UHGV virus genome: UHGV-0253090
Origin: a virus
Direction: 5' to 3' (one strand)
Length of the DNA: 30,200 nucleotides
Positions 1 to 23,839 of the stretch are shown here, piece after piece; positions within the stretch are counted from its first letter, which is position 1; each line of letters starts with the position of its first letter. Below the pieces are notes generated by a model, which had not been told where the DNA came from, searched no databases, and saw only the letters and a program-made list of their open reading frames with translations. The translations under genes and the position numbers were made by a program.

Positions 1-422
1 TCCAGCAGTTCATCAATCACCGGATCGTAACGACGAACAAAACCGTTGGTGTCCAGACAGGTATGAATGCCTTCTTTTTTGCAGGCGCGGAACCAGTCAC
101 GAACAAACTCAGCTTGTAGGATTGCCTCACCGCCGGATGCGGTAACGCCGCCGCCGGAAGCGTTCATAAAGTGGCGATAGGTCACCACTTCCTTCATCAA
201 ATCTTCAACGGTAACTTCTTTACCGCCATGCGTATCCCAGGTGTCGCGGTTATGACAATACAGGCAGCGCATCAGGCAGCCCTGGAAAAAGGTGATAAAG
301 CGAATACCCGGGCCGTCTACGGTTCCACAGGATTCAAAGGAGTGAATGCGACCAATAACTGACTTGGTAGCCCCCGCCGCAGCGGTATTTTCTGTTGTAT
401 TACAATTAGTTAAATTACTCAT
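1..422 (-). CDS. pflA: Pyruvate formate-lyase activating enzyme (radical SAM), 5' portion; gene runs off the window edge. N-terminus differs from canonical PflA.
   Basis: Own translation of the minus strand gives [20 protein letters not shown] followed by [44 protein letters not shown]...[17 protein letters not shown], matching E. coli PflA from residue 2 on, including the CxxxCxxC radical-SAM motif. Start ATG at 420-422 (minus). Confidence 0.85.
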
Positions 423-453
423 ATCGCTTCAATTGGCTCTAGTTAACTCTGGT

Positions 454-1449
454 TTATGGACGCATTATGGACATTCCTGACACCGGGTTAAGAGTCACAG
501 CATCTTGTAAGAAATCCGGTGCAAAGTGTGCGTAGGTCATAGTTTGCTGAATGTTAGAATGACCCAGGATGCGCTGCAATGTGATTATGTTACCTCCATT
601 CATTATAAAATGTGTGGCAAATGTATGCCTCAAAACATGCACTGCCTGTCCGTCAGGTAAATCGGGTTTTACTTCCCTGAGAGCGTTGCGCACTTTGTAG
701 TAACTGGCATTAAAAAGCCTGCCAGAATTTTTGGTTTTGATCCGTTTAATCAAGTCCTGCGAAACGGGAATTGTCCTGCGCTTTCCGTTTTTAGTTTTCA
801 TAAACGTAACCATCTGGTTAATGATGTGTTCAGCTTTTAAATTAGACACTTCACTCCAGCGTCCACCAGTAGAAAGGCAGACCAGAGTCGCATTTAATTC
901 ATCACCATCAAGCATGGATAACAGTCGCGTAATCTCTTCACTGGACAAAAAAGCCATTTCTGTAACAGCTTCACGTAACCGCTTAACCTCACGGAACGGG
1001 TTGTGAGAGTGGTATTCACCGGCGTCAATTAACTTGGTGAACATCCCGCTCATTATTGCCAGATGCCGATTTACGCTGGCTGGTTTTAGACCATCGTTCA
1101 TCATTACAACGCGATAATCAGTTATCGTTTTCTTTGTTAGCTGGTCAGCTCTGGACACTCCCATTTCTGCAAATTTGGCGATTATTGTCGTTAAACGCCC
1201 CCGTTCAATATCTCCACGCTCATGTGATTTTCCGTGATATATCCACCATCTGCCTAACAACTCTGTAAGAGTTCGGCGGTCGGCTGGTTTCTCCAGCCAC
1301 TCTTTGTTGTGGTAGTTAACCAGTACATGACGTTCGAATGCTTGAGCTTCACCTTTAGTTTTAAATTTCCGCCTGATACGTTTTCCATCTGCACCCTGCG
1401 GTCTGACGTCCACTTCATAACGACCATCATCGAGCTTTTTAATAGACAT
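454..1449 (-). CDS. int: P2-type tyrosine integrase
   Basis: 331-aa ORF starting MSIKKLDDGRYEV, with C-terminal HxLRHTFAT...LGH...Y catalytic region typical of P2/186 integrases. GGAGGG SD 4 nt upstream of the ATG. Lies next to the host junction. Confidence 0.92.
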   Translation of the reverse strand: MSIKKLDDGRYEVDVRPQGADGKRIRRKFKTKGEAQAFERHVLVNYHNKEWLEKPADRRTLTELLGRWWIYHGKSHERGDIERGRLTTIIAKFAEMGVSRADQLTKKTITDYRVVMMNDGLKPASVNRHLAIMSGMFTKLIDAGEYHSHNPFREVKRLREAVTEMAFLSSEEITRLLSMLDGDELNATLVCLSTGGRWSEVSNLKAEHIINQMVTFMKTKNGKRRTIPVSQDLIKRIKTKNSGRLFNASYYKVRNALREVKPDLPDGQAVHVLRHTFATHFIMNGGNIITLQRILGHSNIQQTMTYAHFAPDFLQDAVTLNPVSGMSIMRP

Positions 1450-1542: not shown

Positions 1543-1842
1543 TCAGCCAGTTTTCTGGTCTGAGTGGTGCAAGGTTGTTGAGTCTTGCCCAATGTGTGCG
1601 AGAGCCGGGGCTATTTGTCCAGCTGCTGGATCTGTTTCATCAAACATGAACCAGTCACGATACTTGCGAAAGCGTGGATGCTTAAACAGCTTCATACCTG
1701 CTTCCATAGGCATTTTTGATTTTCCTGATTCATATCCATGATATGTGTAGTAATTAATTCCAATTAATTCAGCAAGTTCCTTAGTTTTAAGGCGTTCGGA
1801 TTCACGGATGAGCTTTAGTTTTTCACTTTGTTCACTTGACAT
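1543..1842 (-). CDS. C: Immunity repressor C (P2 C-like, HTH)
   Basis: From the internal ATG the product is 99 aa (MSSEQSEK...GQIAPALAHIGQDSTTLHHSDQKTG), co-linear with P2 C (99 aa, MSNTISEK...GQIAPALAHFGQ...SGQKTG). The ORF track extends to 1860 using a TTG start. Confidence 0.85.
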   Translation of the reverse strand: MSSEQSEKLKLIRESERLKTKELAELIGINYYTYHGYESGKSKMPMEAGMKLFKHPRFRKYRDWFMFDETDPAAGQIAPALAHIGQDSTTLHHSDQKTG

Positions 1843-1935
1843 AATTTTGCTAATCTCCAATTATATTGCTACTTGGCAATTTGTGATTCACTCAAAAAGG
1901 CTCTAGAAGGCTCCAGTTGGTGAATCGCAAATCTT
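1843..1935. promoter_or_regulatory. Lysis/lysogeny switch region between divergent C and cox (Pc/Pe-type promoters and operators)
   Basis: Intergenic region between divergent repressor and cox genes. Contains a 13-bp inverted repeat (atttgtgattcac 1879-1891 / gtgaatcgcaaat 1920-1932), tandem 10-bp direct repeats (aaggctctag / aaggctccag, about 1897-1916) and a perfect TATAAT on the minus strand (1859-1864). Confidence 0.55.
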
Positions 1936-2307
1936 ATGGAGGATAGCAAAGTGACGACAAATGTAGAAATTTCTTGTCCAACTAGCGATGAGGCAAGTTT
2001 CGAAAATGAAGCCAAACGTAAAAGCATTCAGATTTCAGAGCGCCCATCTGATTTGCTGTCGAAAGAAGGTTTTGCTCTTTACATCGGTAAGACACCACGC
2101 GCGGTGGCTGAAATGGCTAAAGCAGGAAAGCTGCCAGCCTTCTACATGACAGACCCATTAAAACCAAGAGGGAAAGCTGAATTATGGATTAATCGCCGTG
2201 AGTGGGACAAGTACGCAGCCCAACTGGTTGATGAAGCTCCGACAGAATGGCATGACTGGAAAAATCGCATTAGTTACAGCAAATCAAGACATGGCCGTGC
2301 GGCTTAA
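1936..2307 (+). CDS. cox: Cox-like excisionase / transcriptional regulator; start uncertain (ATG 1936 or GTG 1951 after GGAGGA)
   Basis: Core YIGKTPRAVAEMAKAGKLPAFYMTDP aligns with the P2 Cox HTH region (LIGKSTGAVRRMIDKGKLPVIDMTDP). Divergent from C as in P2. The ORF is about 30 aa longer at the N-terminus than P2 Cox. Confidence 0.75.
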   Translation: MEDSKVTTNVEISCPTSDEASFENEAKRKSIQISERPSDLLSKEGFALYIGKTPRAVAEMAKAGKLPAFYMTDPLKPRGKAELWINRREWDKYAAQLVDEAPTEWHDWKNRISYSKSRHGRAA

Positions 2308-3799: not shown

Positions 3800-4071
3800 G
3801 TATTCGTATTGAAATTGGCGAACGTTATGTCGTTACCAGTGACAGCTTTCAGTTTATTCTCCACGAGAAAAAGAGAGCGGAAAGCGGTAAAAACGCCGGT
3901 CAGGAATGGCTGTCGGTGGTTGGTTATTACCCGAAATTAAGCCAGCTCGTTTCCGGCCTGATGCATCACGATATTCTGACCGGAAGCGCAAAATCTTTTG
4001 CCGATTTAAACGCGCAGGTTGAGCAACTCAGCAAGCGTTGTTCAGAGGCTTTTGGCTCATATGGCCGTTAA
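3796..4071 (+). CDS. Hypothetical early protein (P2 orf83-like)
   Basis: 91-aa ORF, ATGA overlap with the zinc-finger ORF. Ends overlapping the A start. Confidence 0.7.
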   Translation: MSIRIEIGERYVVTSDSFQFILHEKKRAESGKNAGQEWLSVVGYYPKLSQLVSGLMHHDILTGSAKSFADLNAQVEQLSKRCSEAFGSYGR

Positions 4072-6334
4072 AGCCTCCGGGCGTTTTGTCCCTCCGTCAG
4101 CATTTGCCGCAGGTACCGGTAAGACGTTTACCGGTGCTTATGCATGGAACGCGCCACGCGAGGCTGTCGGGCGCGAAAGACCCCTTACACGTGACGAGAT
4201 GCGTCAGGTGCAAGGTGTTTTATCCACGATTAACCGTCTGCCTTACTTTTTGCGCTCGCTGTTTACTTCACGCTATGACTACATCCGGCGCAATAAAAGC
4301 CCGGTGCACGGGTTTTATTTCCTCACATCCACTTTTCAGCGTCGTTTATGGCCGCGCATTGAGCGTGTGAATCAGCGCCATGAAATGAACACCGACGCGT
4401 CGTTGCTGTTTCTGGCAGAGCGCGACCAGTATGCGCGCCTGCCGGGGATGAATGACAAGGAGCTGAAAAAGTTTGCCGCCCGAATCTCATCGCAGCTTTT
4501 CATGATGTATGAGGAACTCTGCGATGCCTGGGTGGATGCGCATGGCGAAAAAGAATCGCTGTTTACGGATGAGGCGCAGGCTCACCTGTATGGTCATGTT
4601 GCTGGCGCTGCACGTGCTTTCAATATTTCCCCGCTTTACTGGAGAAAATACCGTAAAGGGCAGATGACCACGAGGCAGGCATATTCTGCCATTGCCCGCC
4701 TGTTTAACGATGAGTGGTGGATTAGTCAGCTTAAAGGCCAGCGTATGCGCTGGCATGAGGCGTTACTGATTGCTGTCGGGGAGGTGAATAAAGACCGTTC
4801 TCCTTATGCCAGTAAACATGCCATTCGTGATGTGCGTGCACGCCGCCAGGCAAATCTGGAATTTCTTAAATCGTGTGACCTTGAAAACAGGGAAACCGGC
4901 GAGCGCATCGACCTTATCAGTAAGGTGATGAGCAGTATTTCTAATCCTGAAATTCGCCGGATGGAGCTGATGAACACCATTGCCGGTATTGAGCGTTACG
5001 CCGCCGCAGAGGGTGATGTGGGGATGTTTATCACGCTTACCGCGCCGTCAAAGTATCACCCGACACGTCAGGTCGGAAAAGGCGAAAGTAAAACCGTCCA
5101 GCTAAATCACGGCTGGAACGATGAGGCATTTAATCCAAAGGATGCGCAGCGTTATCTCTGCCATATCTGGAGCCTGATGCGCACGGCATTCAAGGATAAT
5201 GATTTACAGGTCTACGGTTTGCGTGTCGTCGAGCCACACCACGACGGAACGCCGCACTGGCATATGATGCTTTTTTGTAATCCACGCCAGCGTAACCAGA
5301 TTATCGAAATCATGCGTCGCTATGCGCTCAAAGAGGATGGCGACGAAAGAGGAGCCGCGCGAAACCGTTTTCAGGCAAAACACCTTAACCAGGGCGGTGC
5401 TGCGGGGTATATCGCGAAATACATCTCAAAAAACATCGATGGCTATGCACTGGATGGTCAGCTCGATAACGATACCGGCAGACCGCTGAAAGACACTGCT
5501 GCGGCTGTTACCGCATGGGCGTCAACGTGGCGCATCCCACAATTTAAAACGGTTGGTCTGCCGACAATGGGGGCTTACCGTGAACTACGCAAATTGCCTC
5601 GCGGCGTCAGCATTGCTGATGAGTTTGACGAACGCGTTGAGGCTGCACGTGCCGCCGCAGACAGTGGTGATTTTGCGTTGTATATCAGCGCGCAGGGTGG
5701 GGCAAATGTTCCGCGTGATTGTCAGACTGTCAGGGTTGCCCGTAGTCCGTCGGATGACGTTAACGAGTACGAGGAAGAAGTCGAGAGAGTGGTCGGCATT
5801 TACGCGCCGCATCTCGGCGCGCGTCATATTCATATCACCAGAACGACGGACTGGCGCATTGTGCCGAAAGTTCCGGTCGTTGAGCCTTTGACTTTAAAAA
5901 GCGGCATCGCCGCGCCTCGGAGTCCTGTCAATAACTGTGGAAAGCTCACCGGTGGTGATACTTCGTTACCGGCTCCCACGCCTTCTGAGCACGCCGCAGC
6001 AGTGCTTAATCTGGTTGATGACGGTGTTATCGAATGGAATGACCCGGAGGTCGTGAGGGCGCTCAGAAGCGCATTAAAACACGGCCTGAGAAGACCAAAC
6101 CGTCAGCAAAGAAACGGAAGCCCGTTAAAACCGCATGAAATAGCGCCATCGGCCAGACTTACCCGGTCGGAACGAATGCAAATTACCCGTATCCGCGTTG
6201 ACCTTGCTCAGAACGGTATCAGGCCGCAGCGATGGGAGCTTGAGGCGCTGGCGCGTGGGGCAACCGTAAATTATGACGGGAAAAAATTCACGTATCCGAT
6301 TGCTGAAGAGTGGTCGGGATTTTCCTCAAACTAA
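4061..6334 (+). CDS. A: Replication initiation endonuclease A (rolling-circle Rep, P2 gpA-like)
   Basis: About 757 aa from ATG 4061 (MAVKASGRFVPP...), matching my recall of the P2 gpA N-terminus and length (761 aa). Contains a HxH-like PHHDGTPHWHMML and the conserved GYIAKYISK region of rolling-circle initiators. The ORF track start at 4019 is a TTG. Confidence 0.9.
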   Translation: MAVKASGRFVPPSAFAAGTGKTFTGAYAWNAPREAVGRERPLTRDEMRQVQGVLSTINRLPYFLRSLFTSRYDYIRRNKSPVHGFYFLTSTFQRRLWPRIERVNQRHEMNTDASLLFLAERDQYARLPGMNDKELKKFAARISSQLFMMYEELCDAWVDAHGEKESLFTDEAQAHLYGHVAGAARAFNISPLYWRKYRKGQMTTRQAYSAIARLFNDEWWISQLKGQRMRWHEALLIAVGEVNKDRSPYASKHAIRDVRARRQANLEFLKSCDLENRETGERIDLISKVMSSISNPEIRRMELMNTIAGIERYAAAEGDVGMFITLTAPSKYHPTRQVGKGESKTVQLNHGWNDEAFNPKDAQRYLCHIWSLMRTAFKDNDLQVYGLRVVEPHHDGTPHWHMMLFCNPRQRNQIIEIMRRYALKEDGDERGAARNRFQAKHLNQGGAAGYIAKYISKNIDGYALDGQLDNDTGRPLKDTAAAVTAWASTWRIPQFKTVGLPTMGAYRELRKLPRGVSIADEFDERVEAARAAADSGDFALYISAQGGANVPRDCQTVRVARSPSDDVNEYEEEVERVVGIYAPHLGARHIHITRTTDWRIVPKVPVVEPLTLKSGIAAPRSPVNNCGKLTGGDTSLPAPTPSEHAAAVLNLVDDGVIEWNDPEVVRALRSALKHGLRRPNRQQRNGSPLKPHEIAPSARLTRSERMQITRIRVDLAQNGIRPQRWELEALARGATVNYDGKKFTYPIAEEWSGFSSN

Positions 6335-6506: not shown

Positions 6507-6539
6507 GGGCAAGAGGGTGTTCTTGCCCTTTGTTTATTT
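6507..6539. terminator. Bidirectional rho-independent terminator between A and the SIR2 gene
   Basis: Perfect 8-bp stem GGGCAAGA (6507-6514) / TCTTGCCC (6521-6528) with a 6-nt loop, T-rich on both sides. Sits immediately 3' of the minus-strand SIR2 gene stop (6538-6540). Confidence 0.6.
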
Positions 6540-9132
6540 AAGCGGCGATTTCAATGTTGCTTTTATATTTTAAGAGGGCGTTTTTGGGAACTGCTGGCCA
6601 GGCTGAGTATCTATAATAGTTCATATAATCTTTCTCTATCAGTGTTTTTAGCTGTTTGTTAGCTTGAACTTCATCACCAAGTAAAAAGAATGCACACATG
6701 GCCGTAGCCCCTTTTGAATTGTTATGTGCTAAAACTGAATTTATCTCATTCTTTTTAATGTCTTGCCCTTCTTTTTTCTTGGCAACTTCTCTATTGATTA
6801 TTAAAACATCTTTTTCCCTGTAATCTTTAATTTTTTCAAGGTTTTCATTAGCGATTTTAATTGTTTCTTTATAGTTTCCTGCAAGAAGATTGGTATAAGA
6901 TTTTCCTAAGATATAATCACTAAACCCGTAACCTTTTTCATAAGCTTCATCAAGAAGAACTATCGCTTTATCATAATCGCCGTTTAAAGATGCAATATCA
7001 GATTTTAATTTTAAAATGGTGATTTCTGATTTGTTTCTTGGCAGGCTATCAATAAACTCCTCTGCCAATTTGATGTTGTTTTTATCAATTAGTAATATGT
7101 CTACAATACTGTTTGTATGATTATTTTTCCACGGGCAGTTCATGGCTTCTTTGACTAATTCAATACCAGCTTTGATGTCCCTGTTGCAGCCTATCTCATA
7201 TCGAGCTTTAAATATAATGAAAGGAGCAATTCTTGCAATGTCGCTCTCTTCTTCATATTTATCAATAAAGCCTTTCATCAGGTTGGGAGTGTTTTCATCG
7301 AAGTCTGTTTCAAATAAAGATAGATGCAGTTGTGTTAAATATTTTAATATGTTTCTTTTTTTATTTTTTGATGATGTTTTGTAAGCGTTGGATAATGTAT
7401 CTATGCATAATAATGTATCTTCTTTCTTTTGCAATGTGCAGGTGAAATCAGTATATAACGACAAATATGTATCGTGAGTAGGGTTGACCTCTTTTATTTT
7501 GTCAAGCAGTTCTTGTATTAATTTATTACAATCTTTCTTATCATGGCTTGATTGATGTTTTGTCTTTATTGCGTCATATTTTATTCTCCATGCAAAATTA
7601 TCCAGATCACTGCTTTGGAGTAAGCTTTTATCAATTAAATCATGTATTTCATCAAAGGTTATTAATTCTTCATCATTATTTTCTAGATGTAGAATAGCAA
7701 TTCTGCTTAAATGATTCTTAAGATTTATGCTATATGGGAATTTTTCAAGCAATCCCTTAAGGTAATGTATTTTTGCCTTTAGATCTGTGAATATGTTTGC
7801 CCTTGAAAGGGCGTAATTTATATTAAATTCATCAAGAGCTATAAGATTATCACTAATTTCTAATGCTGACTTTGTGTCTTTTTGTTCTTCTTTTATTTCA
7901 ATTAGCCTACGCAGATATTTAGACTTTATATTGTCACTATCAGCGTTATTGATTAATTCATTCAGTTTTGACTCTGCGTTTAAATAATTTTTATTTCTAA
8001 TGAGGTTGTCAATGTATAACAAATTCTTAAAATCTTCTTCGGGGATCTTTTGATCGTCTAAATCACTTTGGGATAGCTCGTTTATTAATGACGATATGTC
8101 ATGTGTTAGAGTGTGTTTTTTTAATTTTGAGAGGTCAGATTTGATAATGCCATTTTTAGATAAGTTGTACTCATCTGTTATAAAGTTTTGGATCATCATC
8201 TCTCTTTTTGTGGATTTTTGATTCCCTCCAAAAGAGAGTGCGCAGCCTAATTCTAGGGCTAGTTCTGCCATCAATTCATCAAAACCTTCTATTTCTACCC
8301 AATAAACTTTATCTTGACCTAGAAGCCTAATAAGTTCTGGTGGGATGGAGTCATTTTTTCTAACGCACCAGTATACTCCATTTCTTAGGTAATCGTCCTG
8401 TTTTAATAAATGTTTTAAAACATCCATGATAGAGCTGTCATTGCCAGCATAACCAACAAAAATAATCCCGTATTCTTTAGTGAATTCAGTTAGTTTTTCA
8501 CGAGTGTTACCTTCTAATGACTCGGTTTCTTTTAAAGAGCTTTTTATGCTATCAAATAAATAATCACCATGTAATTTTATTATTTTTGGCCTTGAAGAAG
8601 TAATTGAGACGCCTTTAATTGATGAATCATGTGCACATAATAATGGTCTGTCAGAAGAAAATTGATAAAATGCTTCATTTATTAAATCGTCAAAATTTGT
8701 TGTGAAGACAGTATCAAAAAACTTTGATTCAAATAGTTCAACGAGATAAGCATATCCAATTGAAGGTAATTTTTTGTCTACTTGAAGCTCAACAAATCTT
8801 CTGCGTTGAGATGGAAGATCAAATTTCTTTTCAAAAAGAGATGAGTATTCATTGTTTGGGTCGTACCAGACTGGATGGTTTTTGGATAGCCATTTTTTAG
8901 CTTCTTCGGCATCGACATATTCTTGATTGGATAGTCTTGTGTATATCTCTTCTCTCCATTTCGCTACTAACTCTTGACCAGTTTTTATTCCAGATGTAAC
9001 GGATGCGCCAGCACCAAGAAAAAGTGAATAGTTAGGTGATGTACCTGATTTGATTTTTATATAATCAGCTAAATCTTTAACGGTTCTTTTTTTGGCAACC
9101 AGTTGTTCCTTGGTAGTATCACGATCAGACAT
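6538..9132 (-). CDS. SIR2-domain protein (predicted NAD+ hydrolase) with long alpha-helical, TPR-like C-terminal region; candidate single-gene anti-phage defence protein
   Basis: 864 aa. N-terminal about 300 aa carry SIR2_2-type motifs LFLGAGASVTSG (Rossmann GAGxS), TTNFDDL (catalytic N) and KLHGD (catalytic H), then IFVGYAGND. The remainder is K/N/D/E/L-rich helical repeat sequence with no Walker A motif. Strong GGAGGG SD. Markedly AT-rich compared with flanking phage genes. Sits in the P2 tin/old slot between A and cos. Confidence 0.8.
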   Translation of the reverse strand: MSDRDTTKEQLVAKKRTVKDLADYIKIKSGTSPNYSLFLGAGASVTSGIKTGQELVAKWREEIYTRLSNQEYVDAEEAKKWLSKNHPVWYDPNNEYSSLFEKKFDLPSQRRRFVELQVDKKLPSIGYAYLVELFESKFFDTVFTTNFDDLINEAFYQFSSDRPLLCAHDSSIKGVSITSSRPKIIKLHGDYLFDSIKSSLKETESLEGNTREKLTEFTKEYGIIFVGYAGNDSSIMDVLKHLLKQDDYLRNGVYWCVRKNDSIPPELIRLLGQDKVYWVEIEGFDELMAELALELGCALSFGGNQKSTKREMMIQNFITDEYNLSKNGIIKSDLSKLKKHTLTHDISSLINELSQSDLDDQKIPEEDFKNLLYIDNLIRNKNYLNAESKLNELINNADSDNIKSKYLRRLIEIKEEQKDTKSALEISDNLIALDEFNINYALSRANIFTDLKAKIHYLKGLLEKFPYSINLKNHLSRIAILHLENNDEELITFDEIHDLIDKSLLQSSDLDNFAWRIKYDAIKTKHQSSHDKKDCNKLIQELLDKIKEVNPTHDTYLSLYTDFTCTLQKKEDTLLCIDTLSNAYKTSSKNKKRNILKYLTQLHLSLFETDFDENTPNLMKGFIDKYEEESDIARIAPFIIFKARYEIGCNRDIKAGIELVKEAMNCPWKNNHTNSIVDILLIDKNNIKLAEEFIDSLPRNKSEITILKLKSDIASLNGDYDKAIVLLDEAYEKGYGFSDYILGKSYTNLLAGNYKETIKIANENLEKIKDYREKDVLIINREVAKKKEGQDIKKNEINSVLAHNNSKGATAMCAFFLLGDEVQANKQLKTLIEKDYMNYYRYSAWPAVPKNALLKYKSNIEIAA

Positions 9133-19919: not shown

Positions 19920-20523
19920 TTCGCGACTGCTGCCGACCGGCTCATCACTGCTTGAAGTTGCCGCCGCAAAAGCCTGTGCGGAAATTGAAAAAACGCCGGT
20001 CAGTATTCGTGAGCTGTGGAACCCGGACACCTGCCCGGCAAATCTGCTGCCGTGGCTGGCGTGGTCATTTTCGGTTGACCGCTGGGATGATAAATGGCCG
20101 GAAGCGACAAAACGCGCTGTTATCCGCGATGCGTATTTCATTCACTGCCATAAGGGCACTATAGGCGCAATCCGGCGTGTGGTGGAGCCGCTCGGCTATC
20201 TGATTGAGGTGAGGGAGTGGTGGCAGCTCAACGAGGAGCCGGGGACGTTCCGTATCGTTGTTGGCGTGCTTGAGCAGGGTATTACCGAAGAAATGTATCA
20301 GGAGCTGGAGCGCCTAGTTGCTGATGCAAAACCGGCAAGCCGCCATCTGACGGGACTGGCTATCAGTTTAAGTACAACCGGCAACATTTTTGCCGGTGCG
20401 GGATGCTATCACGGTGACGCCCTGACGGTTTATCCCTACACCCCGGAGGCCATTATTGTCGGAGGGGATTATTTCCCGGCCTCGGCCATTCATTTAATTG
20501 ATAACCTGAGAGTAAACGCATGA
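19912..20523 (+). CDS. I: Baseplate protein I (P2 gpI-like)
   Basis: 203 aa. GGAGG SD. ATGA-type overlaps with both flanking genes. Position before the tail fibre. Confidence 0.8.
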
Positions 20524-21704
20524 CAGTGAAATACTACGCCATTCTGACTAATCAGGGCGCAGCACGGCTGGCTAACGCGACGATGCTCGGCAGTAAGCTG
20601 AATCTGACGCAAATGGCCGTTGGTGATGCGAATGGTGTCTTGCCGACACCAGACCCGGCACAGACAAAACTGATTAACCAGAAACGCATCGCGCCGCTGA
20701 ATCTTCTGAGTGTTGACCCGAACAACCAGAGCCAGATTATTGCGGAGCAAATCATCCCTGAGAACGAGGGCGGATTCTGGATCCGTGAGATTGGGCTTTA
20801 TGATGATGAAGGCGTACTCATTGCGGTGGCAAACTGCCCGGAAACGTACAAACCGCAGTTGCAGGAAGGAAGCGGTCGTACCCAGACTATCCGCATGATT
20901 CTGGTTGTCTCGAATACCGAAGCCATCACGCTGAAAATCGACCCGTCGGTGGTACTGGCGACCCGTAAATACGTGGATGATGAAGTCCTGGAATTAAGGC
21001 TGTATGTGGATGACCAGATGAGAAACCACATTGCCGCACAGGATCCTCATACCCAGTATGCGCAGAAACATAATCCGACATTTACCGGAGAACCAAAAGC
21101 GCCGACGCCTGCCGCAGGAAATAACACCACGCGGATTGCGACCACTGCGTTTGTTCAGGCCGCTATTACCGCTCTGATTAACGGTGCGCCAGCCACGCTG
21201 GACACACTGAAAGAAATTGCCGCAGCCATTAACAATGACCCGAAATTCAGTACCACCATTAACAATGCGCTGTCAGGTAAGCAGCCACTGGATGAGACGC
21301 TGACTCATTTGAGTGGAAAGGATGTAGCTGGTCTTCTCGCATACCTTGGTTTGGGAGAAGCGGCAAAACGGAATGTGGGCACAGGAGATAATCAGATACC
21401 GGATATGGGAGCATTCGCTTCTGGTTCGGGATGGTTCAGGCTACCAGGTGGATATATTGTTCAGTTTGGCACTTTTTCAGGAAACACGACCCGCTTTATC
21501 AGTGGACACTTCCCTATACCATTCCCTAATCGGCCGATGGTTTCAGTCAGTGTTATGTCTGATGCCGTTCAGTCAGACCCGTCGAATCCTGCCCCGCAGG
21601 TTTTGTCTGTAAATTTTGAACATATCAGTAATTCAGCGTGGCGTATGGCAACCAGTGATATCTCATATCAATACAGATTCAGTTATATTTCGATAGGACG
21701 GTAG
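20520..21704 (+). CDS. H: Tail fibre protein: constant N-terminal part plus variable C-terminal tip (current orientation of the invertible segment)
   Basis: 394 aa. The N-terminal region resembles Mu S/P1 S-type tail-fibre constant domains. The recombination site at 21334-21359 lies inside the reading frame, at the LGLGE codons. Confidence 0.8.
21334..21359. repeat. 26-bp DNA-invertase crossover site (left, within the tail-fibre gene)
   Basis: TTCTCGCATACCTTGGTTTGGGAGAA, an imperfect palindrome of the hix/gix/cix type. Shares TTGGTTTGGGAGAA with the reverse complement of the site at 23165-23190. Confidence 0.7.
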
Positions 21705-21706
21705 AA

Positions 21707-22147
21707 ATGCAGAAATATATTTTCAGTGCCGATAAAAATGCGTTTTTCCCTGTGGAGCTTAAAATCGCTTATCAGGAATCCGGCGAATGGCCCGGTGATG
21801 GAATCGAAATTGACGACACTGTTGCCGCCGAATTTATGAAGGAAGCACCAGAAGGAAAATACAGAGGCGTCATCGACGGAATGCCTGCATGGATTGATAT
21901 TCCACCGCCAACTCATGAGGAACAAATTGCCGCAGCCGAACTGGAAAAGCAGCAATTGATTAATCAGGTCAACGAATACATAAACAGTAAGCAATGGCCT
22001 GGTAAAGCGGCGATTGGTCGCCTGAAAGGTGAGGAACTGGCGCAATATAATTTGTGGCTGGATTATCTGGACACACTGGAACTGGTCGATACTTCCGGTG
22101 CGCCAGATATTGAATGGCCTACGCCTCCGGCAGTTCAGGCCAGATGA
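21707..22147 (+). CDS. Tail fibre assembly protein (Tfa, G/U-like), active-orientation copy
   Basis: 146 aa. Directly follows the tail-fibre stop. Typical tail-fibre assembly size and position. Confidence 0.75.
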   Translation: MQKYIFSADKNAFFPVELKIAYQESGEWPGDGIEIDDTVAAEFMKEAPEGKYRGVIDGMPAWIDIPPPTHEEQIAAAELEKQQLINQVNEYINSKQWPGKAAIGRLKGEELAQYNLWLDYLDTLELVDTSGAPDIEWPTPPAVQAR

Positions 22148-22712
22148 CATCCGGCGCGGTGCTGGTATCTGTTACCGTCACCGCGTCAATGTAATCCAGC
22201 ACGGCGTTAAGTCGGGTTGTTTCTGCCTGCGTCAGCTTCCGTCCGGCCTGTAATTTCAGTTGAATCAGACTGATGGAAGCCATTGCAGCATCAATCAGCG
22301 ACTGGCGCTGTGCTTCTGCCGCGTCTACTGCGGCACTATGCTGTGCCTCAGTATCTGTCACCCATTTCTCACCATCCCATTTATCGTATGGCGTTAACGG
22401 TGAAAGCGTGACATAACCGTCTTTGATGGCACCGATATAATCCACTGTAACAGCTGCGCCATTTTCGATTGAGTAAACAGTCTCATTGCGGTGGTCTTCT
22501 TCATGGCTCCATCCCTTACCCGTAAATACTGCCACTTTCCCCGGAATGTATTCGCCCGGGTCAATACCAGTAGAACAGGCGGGCATACTTACGCCAGTAT
22601 TAATATATTCATCAGACCAGCCCGTATATTCAGACGTTACTGCATCATAATAAAAACAACGCATATCACCCGGCACTGTAGCCAGCCCATTTTCATCAAA
22701 AACAGGTTTCAT
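22119..22712 (-). CDS. Tail fibre assembly protein (alternative copy, inverse orientation)
   Basis: 197 aa on the minus strand inside the invertible segment. Its 3' end overlaps the plus-strand tfa 3' end by 29 bp. Confidence 0.7.
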   Translation of the reverse strand: MKPVFDENGLATVPGDMRCFYYDAVTSEYTGWSDEYINTGVSMPACSTGIDPGEYIPGKVAVFTGKGWSHEEDHRNETVYSIENGAAVTVDYIGAIKDGYVTLSPLTPYDKWDGEKWVTDTEAQHSAAVDAAEAQRQSLIDAAMASISLIQLKLQAGRKLTQAETTRLNAVLDYIDAVTVTDTSTAPDVIWPELPEA

Positions 22713-23190
22713 TATGCAGCCCTCACAATATAATTAAAGGCGATGTTACGTGGACGGTTTTCATTAGCTGTTGGCACGACACGAGAGGCGTCGAATCCAA
22801 GGTCATCGGTTTTGTCTATAGTAGTTGTGTTATTCGGCATTCTCGCTGATCGTGTTCCTGCATCGTAAAAAGCCCCTCTGATTGCATCAAAAGACATACC
22901 GATCCCGCCATCTGCGAATCCCTCAATATTTCTTATTGCATCCCCCTGTGAAGATAATAATTGTCGCCCGGCATCCACTCCACGTCCGTCATCCCAGCCA
23001 CGAATAAATTCACCGCGTAAATCAGGCAATTTATTTGTCGGATAAACCTTTGCCAGTTCCGGGTATTCTTCAGCAGAAAAAGCCGCACCATTGCATTTTA
23101 GCCAGCCTGTTGGCGGAGTGGCGGAAGGCCACGGGACAGGCACACCAACGGGTAATGCCGAACCTTCTCCCAAACCAACGTTTAAGAAAA
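22712..23190 (-). CDS. Alternative tail-fibre C-terminal tip (promoterless; expressed only after inversion fuses it to the constant H region)
   Basis: Minus-strand ORF reading ...LGLGEGSALPVGVPVPWPSATPPTGWLKCNGAAFS.... The LGLGE codons coincide with the crossover site, which preserves frame with H. The ORF track extends to 23218, but that part is junction sequence. Confidence 0.65.
23165..23190. repeat. 26-bp DNA-invertase crossover site (right)
   Basis: TTCTCCCAAACCAACGTTTAAGAAAA. Its reverse complement TTTTCTTAAACGTTGGTTTGGGAGAA is the inverted partner of the 21334-21359 site. Confidence 0.7.
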
Positions 23191-23245
23191 TGCAGAGATA
23201 GCGGCTAACTGGCATCATCTCCGGTTTTTATTCAGGGGATCCGTC

Positions 23246-23839
23246 ATGCTTATTGGCTATGTCCGCGTATCAACAAATGACCAGAACACGGAATTGCAGC
23301 GTAACGCACTGGAGTGTGCAGGATGTGAGCTGATTTTTGAGGACAAAATCAGCGGCACGAAGTCCGACAGACCGGGGCTGAAAAAACTGCTCAGAACATT
23401 ATCGGAAGGTGACACTCTGGTTGTCTGGAAGCTGGACAGGCTGGGGCGTAGTATGCGGCATCTGGTCATTCTGGTTGAGGAACTGCGCGAACGCGGCGTT
23501 AATTTTCGCAGCCTGACGGATGCTATTGATACCAGCACGCCGATGGGGCGTTTTTTCTTTCATGTGATGGGTGCCCTGGCTGAAATGGAGCGAGAACTCA
23601 TTGTCGAGAGGACACGCGCCGGACTGGAAGCGGCCAGAGCCAAAGGTCGTATTGGTGGCAGACGACCGAAACTCACCGCGAGTGAGTGGGAGCAGGCCGG
23701 GCGTTTGCTGGCTGCAGGGGAGTCACGTCAACGCGTGGCACTGATTTTTGATATTGGTCTGTCCACGCTCTATAAAAAATTTCCCTCATCAGCGACAAAG
23801 AATAAATTGTGTCATCCCTTAGCCAACCGGGACAAATAG
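23246..23839 (+). CDS. Serine DNA invertase (Hin/Gin/Cin/Pin family)
   Basis: 197 aa, MLIGYVRVSTNDQNTELQRNALECAGCELIFEDKISGTKSDRPGL...VVWKLDRLGRSMRHL..., nearly co-linear with e14 Pin / Mu Gin including the catalytic Ser in the VRVST motif. AGGGGA SD. Confidence 0.92.
   Translation: MLIGYVRVSTNDQNTELQRNALECAGCELIFEDKISGTKSDRPGLKKLLRTLSEGDTLVVWKLDRLGRSMRHLVILVEELRERGVNFRSLTDAIDTSTPMGRFFFHVMGALAEMERELIVERTRAGLEAARAKGRIGGRRPKLTASEWEQAGRLLAAGESRQRVALIFDIGLSTLYKKFPSSATKNKLCHPLANRDK

What the first reader, a model, noticed from the sequence alone, without database searches (positions are those of the whole stretch)
1..456. Prophage insertion replaces the start codon and 5' region of pflA with a phage-encoded N-terminal extension
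Read on the minus strand, the PflA frame matches canonical E. coli PflA from residue 2 ([15 protein letters not shown]...). The canonical Met codon is AAG here, and the frame continues upstream into phage-side sequence to an ATG at 420-422, adding about 20 aa ([20 protein letters not shown]). The int stop codon lies only 31 bp upstream on the same strand. So the attachment core overlaps the pflA start, the phage supplies a substitute start, and pflA may now be transcribed by read-through from the prophage C-int operon. That would couple an anaerobic-metabolism activase to the lysogenic promoter.
Basis: partly seen in the sequence, partly recalled or inferred. Interest (0 to 1): 0.7.

Follow-up and report, generated by a model that had tools for sequence, protein, structure and literature searches.

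The report
P2-like prophage fused to pflA start
A P2-like prophage sits at its already known integration site in the first codons of the E. coli gene pflA and replaces the gene's promoter, ribosome site and start codon with phage DNA carrying an in-frame start 20 codons upstream; the junction is real and common, but whether pflA is still expressed is untested.

Summary
On the minus strand, int ends at 456-454. An ATG at 422-420, 31 nt downstream, opens 20 phage codons ([20 protein letters not shown]). These run in frame into PflA residues 2-121, which are identical to the crystallised E. coli enzyme.

Comparing the window with prophage-free E. coli, the ogr-side junction and free phages shows a classical attP x attB exchange. 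The 13-bp core is GTCAGTTATTGGT (363-351) and starts at the G of the pflA ATG. The phage half-site gives AAG instead of ATG.

This is not new. The site matches the one published for phages PhiD145 and PhiD160, and for ECA29 of Pectobacterium. 405 of 5426 complete E. coli genomes carry the junction, and RefSeq annotates the 265-aa PflA.

My addition is comparative. Every junction sequence I recovered for this integrase family in six genera keeps an ATG exactly 20 codons upstream, with no stop and no indel. WPhi-type attP sites have no such ORF. Rahnella-type phages also keep an ATG and a Shine-Dalgarno sequence at the native position.

The only predicted int-sense terminator moves to the other prophage end on integration, so read-through from Pc is plausible. 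Transcription, translation and activity remain inferred.

The parts
1..350 (-). Host-only part of pflA, from Arg6 (350-348) to the window edge at about residue 121 of native PflA. It includes the radical-SAM CX3CX2C region.
   Evidence: Identical to PDB 3C8F residues 1-120. Pfam Fer4_12 and Radical_SAM. 98-100% identical to pflA of prophage-free E. coli.
351..363 (-). Recombination core GTCAGTTATTGGT (13 bp), shared by attB, attP and both prophage junctions. It covers the third base of the start codon plus codons 2-5 of pflA.
   Evidence: Alignment of the window, phages D8 and vB_YpM_46, the ogr-side junction and prophage-free attB. It occurs once in the window.
363..422 (-). Phage-encoded leader of 20 codons: ATG 422-420 through AAG 365-363, which replaces Met1. 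Peptide [20 protein letters not shown], fused in frame to PflA residue 2.
   Evidence: PGAP annotates the 265-aa CDS. The exact protein is seen on at least 1000 contigs. The ATG and open frame are conserved across lineages.
371..375 (-). GGGGG Shine-Dalgarno-like run, 5 nt upstream of the AAG at the native start position.
   Evidence: Duplex with the 16S 3' end is -8.6 kcal/mol. In Rahnella-type junctions the same element (GGGGG or AGGAGG) precedes a real ATG.
401..412 (-). TAACTAATTGTA, conserved as TAAnnnnTTGTA in all lineages. It is a probable IHF-type bend site of the attP P arm and lies inside leader codons 4-8.
   Evidence: Invariant columns in the junction alignment. The assignment as an IHF site is my inference from the partial match to the IHF consensus.
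423..453 (-). 31-nt spacer between the int stop and the leader ATG. It has no Shine-Dalgarno sequence and little structure.
   Evidence: SD duplex only -2.1 kcal/mol and local fold -2.5 kcal/mol. No unusual fold over 340-470, z = -1.0.
455..473 (-). Two direct arm-type Int-binding repeats, TGTCCATA (473-466) and CGTCCATA (462-455), overlapping the int 3' end.
   Evidence: Read directly. They match the P2-type arm consensus tgTGGaCa (reverse complement) given in PMC3448106. Conserved in all lineages.
464..491 (-). Sigma-70 promoter-like match, TTAACC-16-CATAAT, inside the int 3' end and overlapping the arm-type repeats. It is a candidate phage-side promoter for pflA.
   Evidence: 9 of 12 matches; the number of hits in the region is no more than expected from shuffles. 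The same hit is present in phage D8. The -10-like hexamer is kept in other lineages, but it is confounded with the arm sites.
454..1449 (-). int, a tyrosine integrase of 331 aa.
   Evidence: 99.7-100% identical to Int of phages vB_YpM_46, D8, 11W, 12W, P24E6b, pro483 and pro147.
1543..1842 (-). Immunity repressor C (99 aa), first gene of the C-int transcription unit.
   Evidence: ORF. Annotated as GpC in phage D8. Weak Pfam HTH_19 match, 24.6 bits, below the family's 30.2-bit cutoff.
1860..1887 (-). Pc-like promoter (ATCACA-16-TATAAT) reading into C, int and onward to pflA. It faces the Pe-like promoter on the + strand at 1836-1864.
   Evidence: 10 of 12 matches each. The face-to-face arrangement is that of the P2 switch.
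1936..2307 (+). cox, on the divergent early strand. It marks the prophage as having a P2-type switch.
   Evidence: Pfam Phage_Cox, E = 3e-29.

Best explanation
The window begins at the int-side junction of a P2-like (Peduovirus) prophage of the PhiD145 integration type. It is inserted by Int-mediated attP x attB recombination at a 13-bp core (GTCAGTTATTGGT) that starts at the last base of the pflA start codon.

Shown:
- Integration moves the native pflA promoter, Shine-Dalgarno sequence and the 'AT' of the ATG to the far (ogr) end of the prophage.
- Phage P-arm DNA now lies in front of pflA. This DNA reads AAG where the ATG was.
- It carries an ATG exactly 20 codons upstream in the pflA frame, 31 nt after the int stop.

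Inferred:
- Lysogens make a 265-residue PflA with a hydrophilic phage-encoded 20-residue leader, translated from that ATG.
- Its mRNA comes from the phage side. The most likely source is the C-int transcript from Pc, which loses its terminator on integration. A weak promoter in the int 3' end may contribute.
- The open leader frame is a selected property of this attP family that keeps the target gene usable.
- Native pflA is weakly and constitutively expressed and PflA acts catalytically (my knowledge). Low constitutive Pc-driven expression would therefore probably suffice, and lysogeny would change pflA control only modestly.
For: Anatomy
- Searches give attB, attP and both junctions.
- The free-phage attP carries the same ATG, which there opens a 27-codon ORF ending just past the core.

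Identity of the site
- PMC3448106 Table 1 places PhiD145 and PhiD160 at MG1655 coordinate 950293 and gives ECA29 the same site.
- pflA starts at 951080 in NC_000913.3, which I take to be 950303 in the earlier version. That puts the published point inside the core.

Prevalence and integrity
- 405 of 5426 complete E. coli genomes carry the junction. PGAP calls pflA across it in all 40 sampled rows shown.
- The exact 265-aa protein is on at least 1000 contigs. 265-aa PflA proteins with this type of leader also occur in Klebsiella and Salmonella.
- 33 of 34 junction-bearing loci that extend far enough have an intact 265-codon ORF. The exception has homopolymer-type indels.

Conservation found without reference to the ORF (Int homology or a DNA pattern)
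- Hosts are E. albertii, Scandinavium (3 species), Pseudescherichia, Rahnella, an E. coli variant with 86%-identical Int, and 32 metagenome loci.
- All have ATG, 20 codons, no stop and no indel. The other two frames carry 1-5 stops.
- A crude neutral simulation gives P about 1e-3 for five lineages on a star tree. With only two or three truly independent lineages it is about 0.01-0.05.
- WPhi-type and P88-type attP regions have no such ORF.

Transcription
- No terminator-like element lies on the minus strand between Pc and pflA.
- The only int-sense terminator of the free phage lies beyond the core and ends up at the ogr end.
- HK022/torS is an experimentally shown precedent for phage-side transcription of a host gene next to int (PMC6814406).
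Against: - No transcript, protein or phenotype data were available.
- The leader ATG has essentially no Shine-Dalgarno sequence (-2.1 kcal/mol), so translation could be weak.
- The whole 146 nt from the int C-terminal motif to pflA Gly5 is free of indels, and part of the leader is a conserved DNA motif. DNA-level constraints of the attP arm therefore explain some of the conservation.
- Substitutions in the leader show no codon-position bias, so the peptide itself is not under selection.
- The lineages are related by descent, so the simulated probabilities overstate independence.
- The ECA29 insertion in Pectobacterium is described in a review as having disrupted pflA.
- It is unknown whether a 20-residue N-terminal leader is tolerated by the enzyme. 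The only hint is that some orthologues next to pflB are called with about 22 extra N-terminal residues.
Confidence: 0.65

Rival explanations
1. Integration simply inactivates or nearly silences pflA. The gene has lost its promoter, ribosome-binding site and start codon. The 265-aa ORF is an annotation artefact of an accidental upstream ATG, and lysogens are PFL-deficient or rely on other pathways.
For: - The native ATG is replaced by AAG, and the native promoter and SD are about 30 kb away.
- The leader ATG has no SD.
- A review lists ECA29 as disrupting pflA.
- One decayed remnant (L095) has a frameshifted pflA in its assembly.
Against: - The ATG and open frame are kept in all independently retrieved lineages, while the other frames are full of stops.
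- attP sites with other targets have no such ORF.
- pflA is intact in 33 of 34 lysogen loci from several genera.
- The junction is present in 7.5% of complete E. coli genomes.
- Rahnella-type phages supply an SD plus an ATG at the native position. This only makes sense if expression of pflA matters.
Confidence: 0.15
2. pflA in the lysogen is transcribed from a dedicated promoter inside the int 3' end or P arm (TTAACC-16-CATAAT, 491-464), as in HK022/torS, rather than by read-through from Pc. Because the promoter overlaps the arm-type sites, Int binding could then modulate pflA.
For: - The promoter-like match is at the same place in the prophage and in the free phage.
- A -10-like hexamer with A2 and T6 persists in other lineages.
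Against: - The match is weak (9 of 12), and the number of such hits in the region equals the shuffle expectation.
- The hexamer coincides with the conserved Int arm-type repeats, which alone explain its conservation.
- The -35 is poorly conserved.
- This does not exclude read-through. Both could act.
Confidence: 0.3
3. A near-native PflA is made from a non-AUG start. Ribosomes would be recruited by the GGGGG Shine-Dalgarno-like run (375-371) and initiate at AAG (365-363) or at ATT (Ile4). The upstream ATG would then be irrelevant.
For: - The SD-like element is strong (-8.6 kcal/mol) and lies 5 nt before AAG.
- The homologous element precedes a true ATG in Rahnella-type junctions.
Against: - AAG is a very poor initiator in E. 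coli (my knowledge of the published all-64-codon measurements).
- ATT lies about 14 nt from the SD.
- The local region is more structured (-17.1 kcal/mol).
- This does not explain why the upstream ATG and frame are kept in AAG-type lineages.
Confidence: 0.07
4. The open frame is a by-product of DNA-level constraints on the attP P arm (fixed spacing, an IHF-like site, Int half-site). The leader may be translated, but it has not been selected for pflA expression.
For: - There are no indels anywhere in the 146 nt between the int C-terminal motif and pflA Gly5, including non-coding parts.
- A conserved TAAnnnnTTGTA lies inside codons 4-8.
- Substitutions show no codon-position bias.
- The upstream frame stays open even in Rahnella-type phages, which have their own ATG at the native place.
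Against: - Constraints on spacing do not protect against stop-creating substitutions or loss of the ATG, yet none occurred.
- The same AT-rich DNA carries 1-5 stops in each other frame.
- WPhi-type P arms, which have comparable architecture, have no ORF.
Confidence: 0.2

Closest known systems
[quoted passage not shown]
   Same: - P2-type switch (C, cox) with a tyrosine integrase next to att.
- The published site corresponds to the first codons of pflA.
- P2-type arm repeats are present.
- ECA29 is reported to lie in pflA.
   Different: - I could not obtain the PhiD145 sequences themselves. Identity rests on the map coordinate and on the ECA29 link.
- The open literature I could search does not mention the in-frame phage start or the 265-aa fusion.
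HK022 prophage upstream of torS (Carey et al. 2019, eLife 8:e49081, PMC6814406)
   Same: - The prophage is integrated at the 5' side of a host anaerobic-metabolism gene.
- int is the last phage gene before the junction.
- The native promoter is separated from the gene.
- Transcription in the lysogen originates in the prophage.
   Different: - HK022 leaves the torS coding sequence and start codon intact and supplies only a promoter. Here the junction is inside the start codon, so the phage must also supply the start and adds 20 residues.
- Expression is shown experimentally for torS and not for pflA.
Target-gene reconstitution by phages that integrate into gene ends (tRNA 3' ends; e14 or phage 21 in icd). 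My knowledge, not tested here.
   Same: The phage integrates within a gene, and phage DNA at the junction completes the reading frame so that a full-length product is still encoded.
   Different: - Those elements carry a near-copy of the displaced 3' segment, so the product is essentially unchanged.
- Here the 5' end is replaced, only 13 bp are shared, and the product gains a new N-terminus unrelated to the host sequence.

Membership tests
P2-like (Peduovirus) prophage of the PhiD145 integration type | P2-type lysis-lysogeny switch: small C repressor and cox transcribed face to face, with int downstream of C. | tested here: met
   C is at 1842-1543 (-), cox at 1936-2307 (+) with Pfam Phage_Cox, E = 3e-29, and int at 1449-454 (-). 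Face-to-face promoter-like sites are present.
P2-like (Peduovirus) prophage of the PhiD145 integration type | Tyrosine integrase adjacent to the attachment site. | tested here: met
   Pfam Int_N and Phage_integrase. 99.7-100% identical to Int of sequenced Peduovirus isolates. About 55% identical to WPhi/L-413C-type Int proteins and 56-61% to P88-type ones, consistent with a different site specificity.
P2-like (Peduovirus) prophage of the PhiD145 integration type | The same core sequence in attP, attB and both prophage junctions. | tested here: met
   GTCAGTTATTGGT is present in all four. The ogr-side junction was read in a genome whose int-side 700 nt are identical to the window, because the window ends in gene D.
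P2-like (Peduovirus) prophage of the PhiD145 integration type | Direct arm-type repeats of P2 consensus tgTGGaCa on both sides of the core. | tested here: met
   TGTCCATA and CGTCCATA on the int side (473-455). CGTCCACA and TGACCACA on the ogr side of attP.
P2-like (Peduovirus) prophage of the PhiD145 integration type | Integration at the published PhiD145 site (MG1655 coordinate 950293). | tested here: inconclusive
   The coordinate fits the core if the 2011 paper used NC_000913.2. pflA starts at 951080 in version .3, and the 777-bp offset between versions is my own knowledge.
Prophage-driven expression of a flanking host gene (HK022/torS type) | The host gene is separated from its native promoter, with prophage DNA directly upstream on the same strand. 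| tested here: met
   There is no terminator-like element between Pc and pflA, and the terminator is relocated to the ogr end.
Prophage-driven expression of a flanking host gene (HK022/torS type) | A transcript of the host gene starts inside the prophage. | not testable with these tools
   Needs 5' RACE or RNA-seq of a lysogen.
Prophage-driven expression of a flanking host gene (HK022/torS type) | Regulation or phenotype of the host pathway is altered in the lysogen. | not testable with these tools
   Needs PFL activity, formate or anaerobic growth measurements in lysogen and cured strains.
Gene-end reconstitution by a phage-borne duplicate (tRNA or icd type) | The phage carries a copy of the displaced gene segment, so the product is unchanged. 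| tested here: not met
   Only 13 bp are shared. Met1 becomes Lys and 19 further unrelated residues are added.

The most novel reading that the evidence does not exclude
The attP P arm of the PhiD145-type integrase family may have been shaped by selection to encode a translatable replacement 5' end for its target gene. Lysogens in at least six enterobacterial genera would then make a phage-host chimeric PflA whose synthesis depends on the lysogenic promoter Pc, possibly modulated by Int or IHF bound at attL. That would put activation of pyruvate formate-lyase, and of the other glycyl-radical enzymes PflA serves, under prophage control. A further speculative point: the invariant Cys7 of the leader could matter for an iron-sulfur enzyme, although its codon lies in the conserved DNA motif.
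Probability: 0.4. Interest if true: 0.5.

Novelty: already known. Interest (0 to 1): 0.33.

Why it matters
PflA is the sole activase of pyruvate formate-lyase, the central enzyme of mixed-acid fermentation. About one in thirteen complete E. coli genomes, including O25:H4 and O25b:H4-ST131 strains, have its promoter, ribosome site and start codon replaced by phage DNA.

If the chimeric gene is expressed from the prophage, this is a clean, widespread case of a phage that repairs the 5' end of the gene it integrates into and takes over its transcription. That goes one step beyond HK022/torS. If it is not expressed, these lysogens carry a hidden fermentation defect.

Either answer is cheap to obtain. 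It also bears on how the 265-aa 'PflA' entries in the databases should be read.

Tried and rejected
- **PhiECO1 of E. coli HS.** Its coordinates are close to pflA, so I suspected the same site. It lies between rcdA and ybjL and is a 186-type prophage.
- **Protein search with the 60-aa junction peptide.** It returned almost only short fragments. It still yielded the Citrobacter and remnant variants. Because these were found through an open frame, I left them out of the conservation statistics.
- **IMG/VR loci.** Most are trimmed exactly at the int stop, so few give junctions.
- **Phage database.** It holds only the E. coli-type Int. The next relatives are 61% identical or less and have other targets.
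- **The look-up of encoding contigs.** The 258-aa form (MTNESVAVTADKKPVIG...) therefore could not be examined at the DNA level.
- **Literature.** Full-text searches for pflA with P2-like, integrase or prophage found no open-access description of the fusion. The Karlsson 2006 paper is not held. The Y. enterocolitica transcriptome paper mentions pflA only as differentially expressed.
- **Structure prediction.** Not run, because only the first 140 residues lie in the window.
- **Special RNA structure or terminator between int and pflA.** None found, z = -1.0.
Full report
**1. The observation**

Read on the minus strand, the window opens inside pflA and runs upstream into a prophage. The int ORF occupies 1449-454 (331 aa, stop TAA at 456-454). 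It has the Int_N and Phage_integrase domains. After a 31-nt spacer, an ATG at 422-420 opens the frame [39 protein letters not shown].... Residues 21-140 of that frame are identical to residues 1-120 of the crystallised E. coli PFL-activating enzyme 3C8F. The codon at the position of Met1 is AAG (365-363).

**2. Where the junction is**

Prophage-free E. coli has ...GGAGAAACACCGCAATGTCAGTTATTGGTCGCATTCAC..., with a 246-aa pflA that follows pflB and its terminator. The window reads ...GGGGGCTACCAAGTCAGTTATTGGTCGCATTCAC....

Free phages with the same integrase (D8, vB_YpM_46) carry ...GGGGGCTACCAAGTCAGTTATTGGTGACATTTTTTGATATCTAA... between int and ogr. In NZ_AP022326, whose int-side 700 nt are identical to the window, the ogr-side junction reads ...CACCGCAATGTCAGTTATTGGTGACATTTTTTGATATC....

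This is a textbook attP x attB exchange. The 13-bp core is GTCAGTTATTGGT (window 363-351), and its first base is the G of the pflA start codon. In attP the core sits in the inverted repeat ACCAA-N8-TTGGT. This suggests that the phage half-site, and hence AAG instead of ATG, is fixed by Int core binding (inference).

It is not met.

**3. It is a known site**

Table 1 of Nilsson et al. 2011 (PMC3448106) places the P2-like coliphages PhiD145 and PhiD160 at MG1655 coordinate 950293. It gives prophage ECA29 of Pectobacterium atrosepticum the same site identity. pflA starts at 951080 in NC_000913.3. With the 777-bp offset to the earlier genome version (my knowledge), that is 950303. The published point is then 10 nt inside pflA, within the core. 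A 2026 review lists ECA29 as having disrupted pflA.

The arm-type repeats match the P2 consensus quoted in that paper. They are TGTCCATA and CGTCCATA at 473-455, and CGTCCACA and TGACCACA beyond the core.

The junction is common. The purely phage-side 135 nt (366-500) occur in 405 of 5426 complete E. coli genomes, and PGAP calls pflA across them in all 40 sampled rows shown. The 265-aa protein is a RefSeq entry and its exact sequence is seen on at least 1000 contigs. The same protein cluster holds 265-aa PflA proteins with this type of leader from Klebsiella and Salmonella.

I found no open-access text that discusses the phage-supplied start. The two papers most likely to do so, Karlsson 2006 and Mandali 2010, were not available.

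**4. Is the phage ATG there by accident?**

I collected junctions without using gene calls.
- Int homology in one-genome-per-species contigs gave E. albertii, three Scandinavium species, Pseudescherichia vulneris and Rahnella ecdela, with Int 76-100% identical.
- IMG/VR added a few more.
- A DNA pattern anchored on the int C-terminal motif and on pflA Gly5-Ser9, with a free gap of 131-161 nt, gave 32 metagenome loci.
- E. coli S42 carries a variant with 86%-identical Int.

In every case the gap is exactly 146 nt, an ATG lies exactly 20 codons before PflA residue 2, and there is no in-frame stop. The other two frames carry 1-5 stops each.

The leaders differ at 7-22 of 60 nt from the window's, with no codon-position bias. 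The peptide is therefore not conserved, only its openness. A crude neutral simulation gives about 1e-3 for five non-discovery lineages on a star tree. I would discount this to roughly 0.01-0.05, because the lineages share ancestry.

Two further variants (Citrobacter portucalensis, and a decayed remnant that keeps the leader although int has rotted) came from a protein search. They are biased towards open frames, so I did not count them.

As a control, the attP regions of WPhi-type phages (L-413C, fiAA91-ss) and a P88-type prophage have no ATG-started ORF after int.

Against selection for translation:
- The whole 146 nt is indel-free.
- Codons 4-8 contain a conserved TAAnnnnTTGTA that looks like the P-arm IHF site.

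DNA-level constraints therefore contribute.

**5. Two solutions in one phage family**

Rahnella-type junctions keep an ATG at the native position. It is preceded by GGGGG or AGGAGG (SD duplex -9.4 to -10.3 kcal/mol), and the upstream in-frame ATG is also kept.

The E. coli, Scandinavium, Citrobacter and Salmonella types have AAG there. In the E. coli type the SD-like GGGGG (375-371, -8.6 kcal/mol) is retained. The upstream ATG has almost no SD (-2.1 kcal/mol) but lies in an essentially unstructured, A/U-rich stretch (-2.5 kcal/mol over 60 nt).

That Rahnella-type phages supply a good SD plus an ATG argues that expression of pflA after integration matters to this phage family. In the AAG types the upstream ATG is the only credible start.

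**6. Transcription**

The native promoter region stays at the ogr end. There it now opens an 8-codon stub (MSVIGDIF, then stop) and runs into the ogr hairpin.

On the int side, promoter-like sites with the face-to-face geometry of the P2 switch lie at 1887-1860 (Pc-like, minus strand) and 1836-1864 (Pe-like, plus strand). No terminator-like element occurs on the minus strand from there to the window edge, and 340-470 has no unusual fold (z = -1.0).

In free phage D8 the only int-sense terminator-like hairpin lies just beyond the core. Integration moves it to the other prophage end. Since P2 int is co-transcribed with C from Pc (established P2 biology, my knowledge), the lysogenic transcript should run into pflA.

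A weak promoter-like match (TTAACC-16-CATAAT, 491-464) offers an alternative of the HK022/torS kind. In that system a phage promoter in the prophage drives torS, where int ends 73 bp from the junction. Here, however, the match coincides with the Int arm sites and is no better than chance expectation.

**7. State of the gene in lysogens**

Of 34 junction-bearing loci long enough to judge, 33 have an intact 265-codon ORF. The exception has homopolymer-type indels that restore the frame, typical of assembly error. This fits continued use of pflA, but insertions may be recent. Some PflA orthologues next to pflB are called with about 22 extra N-terminal residues. This is a weak hint that N-terminal extensions are tolerated.

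**8. Verdict**

The finding is accurate and its interpretation is reasonable. The element is a known phage type at its known attachment site, and the fusion is already annotated in thousands of genomes.

The comparative evidence is worth keeping: this attP family conserves a replacement start for its target gene, and integration removes the terminator between Pc and pflA. Expression and activity of the chimeric PflA are inferred, not shown. I put the full explanation at about 0.65, outright inactivation at about 0.15, and interest at about 0.33.

Noticed in passing
window 6538-9132 (-): An 864-aa protein with a SIR2_2 domain. Its best PADLOC matches are pAgo-associated SIR2 (Aga_SIR2) and PDC-S65 models. 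It lies in the P2 cargo hotspot next to replication gene A (4019-6334) and is probably a single-gene anti-phage defence cargo.
   Followed up: partly
window 20520-23839: An invertible host-range segment. Tail fibre H (20520-21704 +) and its assembly gene (21707-22147 +) are followed by an inverted alternative fibre tip (Collar domain, 22712-23218 -), its assembly gene (22119-22712 -) and a serine invertase (Resolvase + HTH_7, 23246-23839 +).
   Followed up: partly
L003 1310-1435 (ogr-side junction of NZ_AP022326, outside the window): The displaced native pflA promoter, SD and ATG now open an 8-codon stub (MSVIGDIF, then stop). They then run into the ogr hairpin, which scores as a terminator in the pflA sense too.
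   Followed up: partly
L012, L062-L070, L100, L105, L119-L130 (Rahnella-type junctions): These relatives keep an ATG at the native pflA start, preceded by GGGGG or AGGAGG. They also keep the upstream in-frame ATG. This is a second way the same phage family restores the pflA start.
   Followed up: yes
L095 1900-2300 (Logan SRR2175557): A decayed prophage remnant. Only a degenerate int 3' end is left, but the leader ATG and 20 codons in front of pflA are kept. In this assembly pflA itself carries a 1-nt frameshift.
   Followed up: partly
L136 1493-1793 (PV468777, P88-like prophage from an O25b:H4-ST131 strain): Another P2-like integrase type ends about 300 bp upstream of dmsA (DMSO reductase subunit A) on the same strand. 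This is a second anaerobic-respiration operon with a P2-like prophage at its 5' side.
   Followed up: no
L091 2494-2740: An Int 70% identical to the window's lies next to a gene whose product begins [40 protein letters not shown]. By my reading this is PyrE-like. It indicates a different target for a fairly close integrase.
   Followed up: no
P0133 (Salmonella enterica, 258 aa): A PflA with a shorter, different leader ([22 protein letters not shown]). It could be a lineage where the 20-codon start was lost or replaced. Its DNA context could not be fetched.
   Followed up: no
P0023, P0119; L097-L099: PflA orthologues directly downstream of pflB are called with about 22 extra N-terminal residues (MSTT...PPAT(F/L)GRIHSF). 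The P0119 type is frameshifted after about 48 residues on 11 contigs.
   Followed up: no
summary: Three of the 405 E. coli matches to the phage-side junction are on records labelled as plasmids.
   Followed up: no
window 422-29037 versus NZ_AP022326 (L002, L003): The prophage of the genome with the identical int-side junction is about 3.36 kb longer than the window's between the pflA leader ATG and the start of gene D. The two prophages therefore differ in cargo.
   Followed up: no
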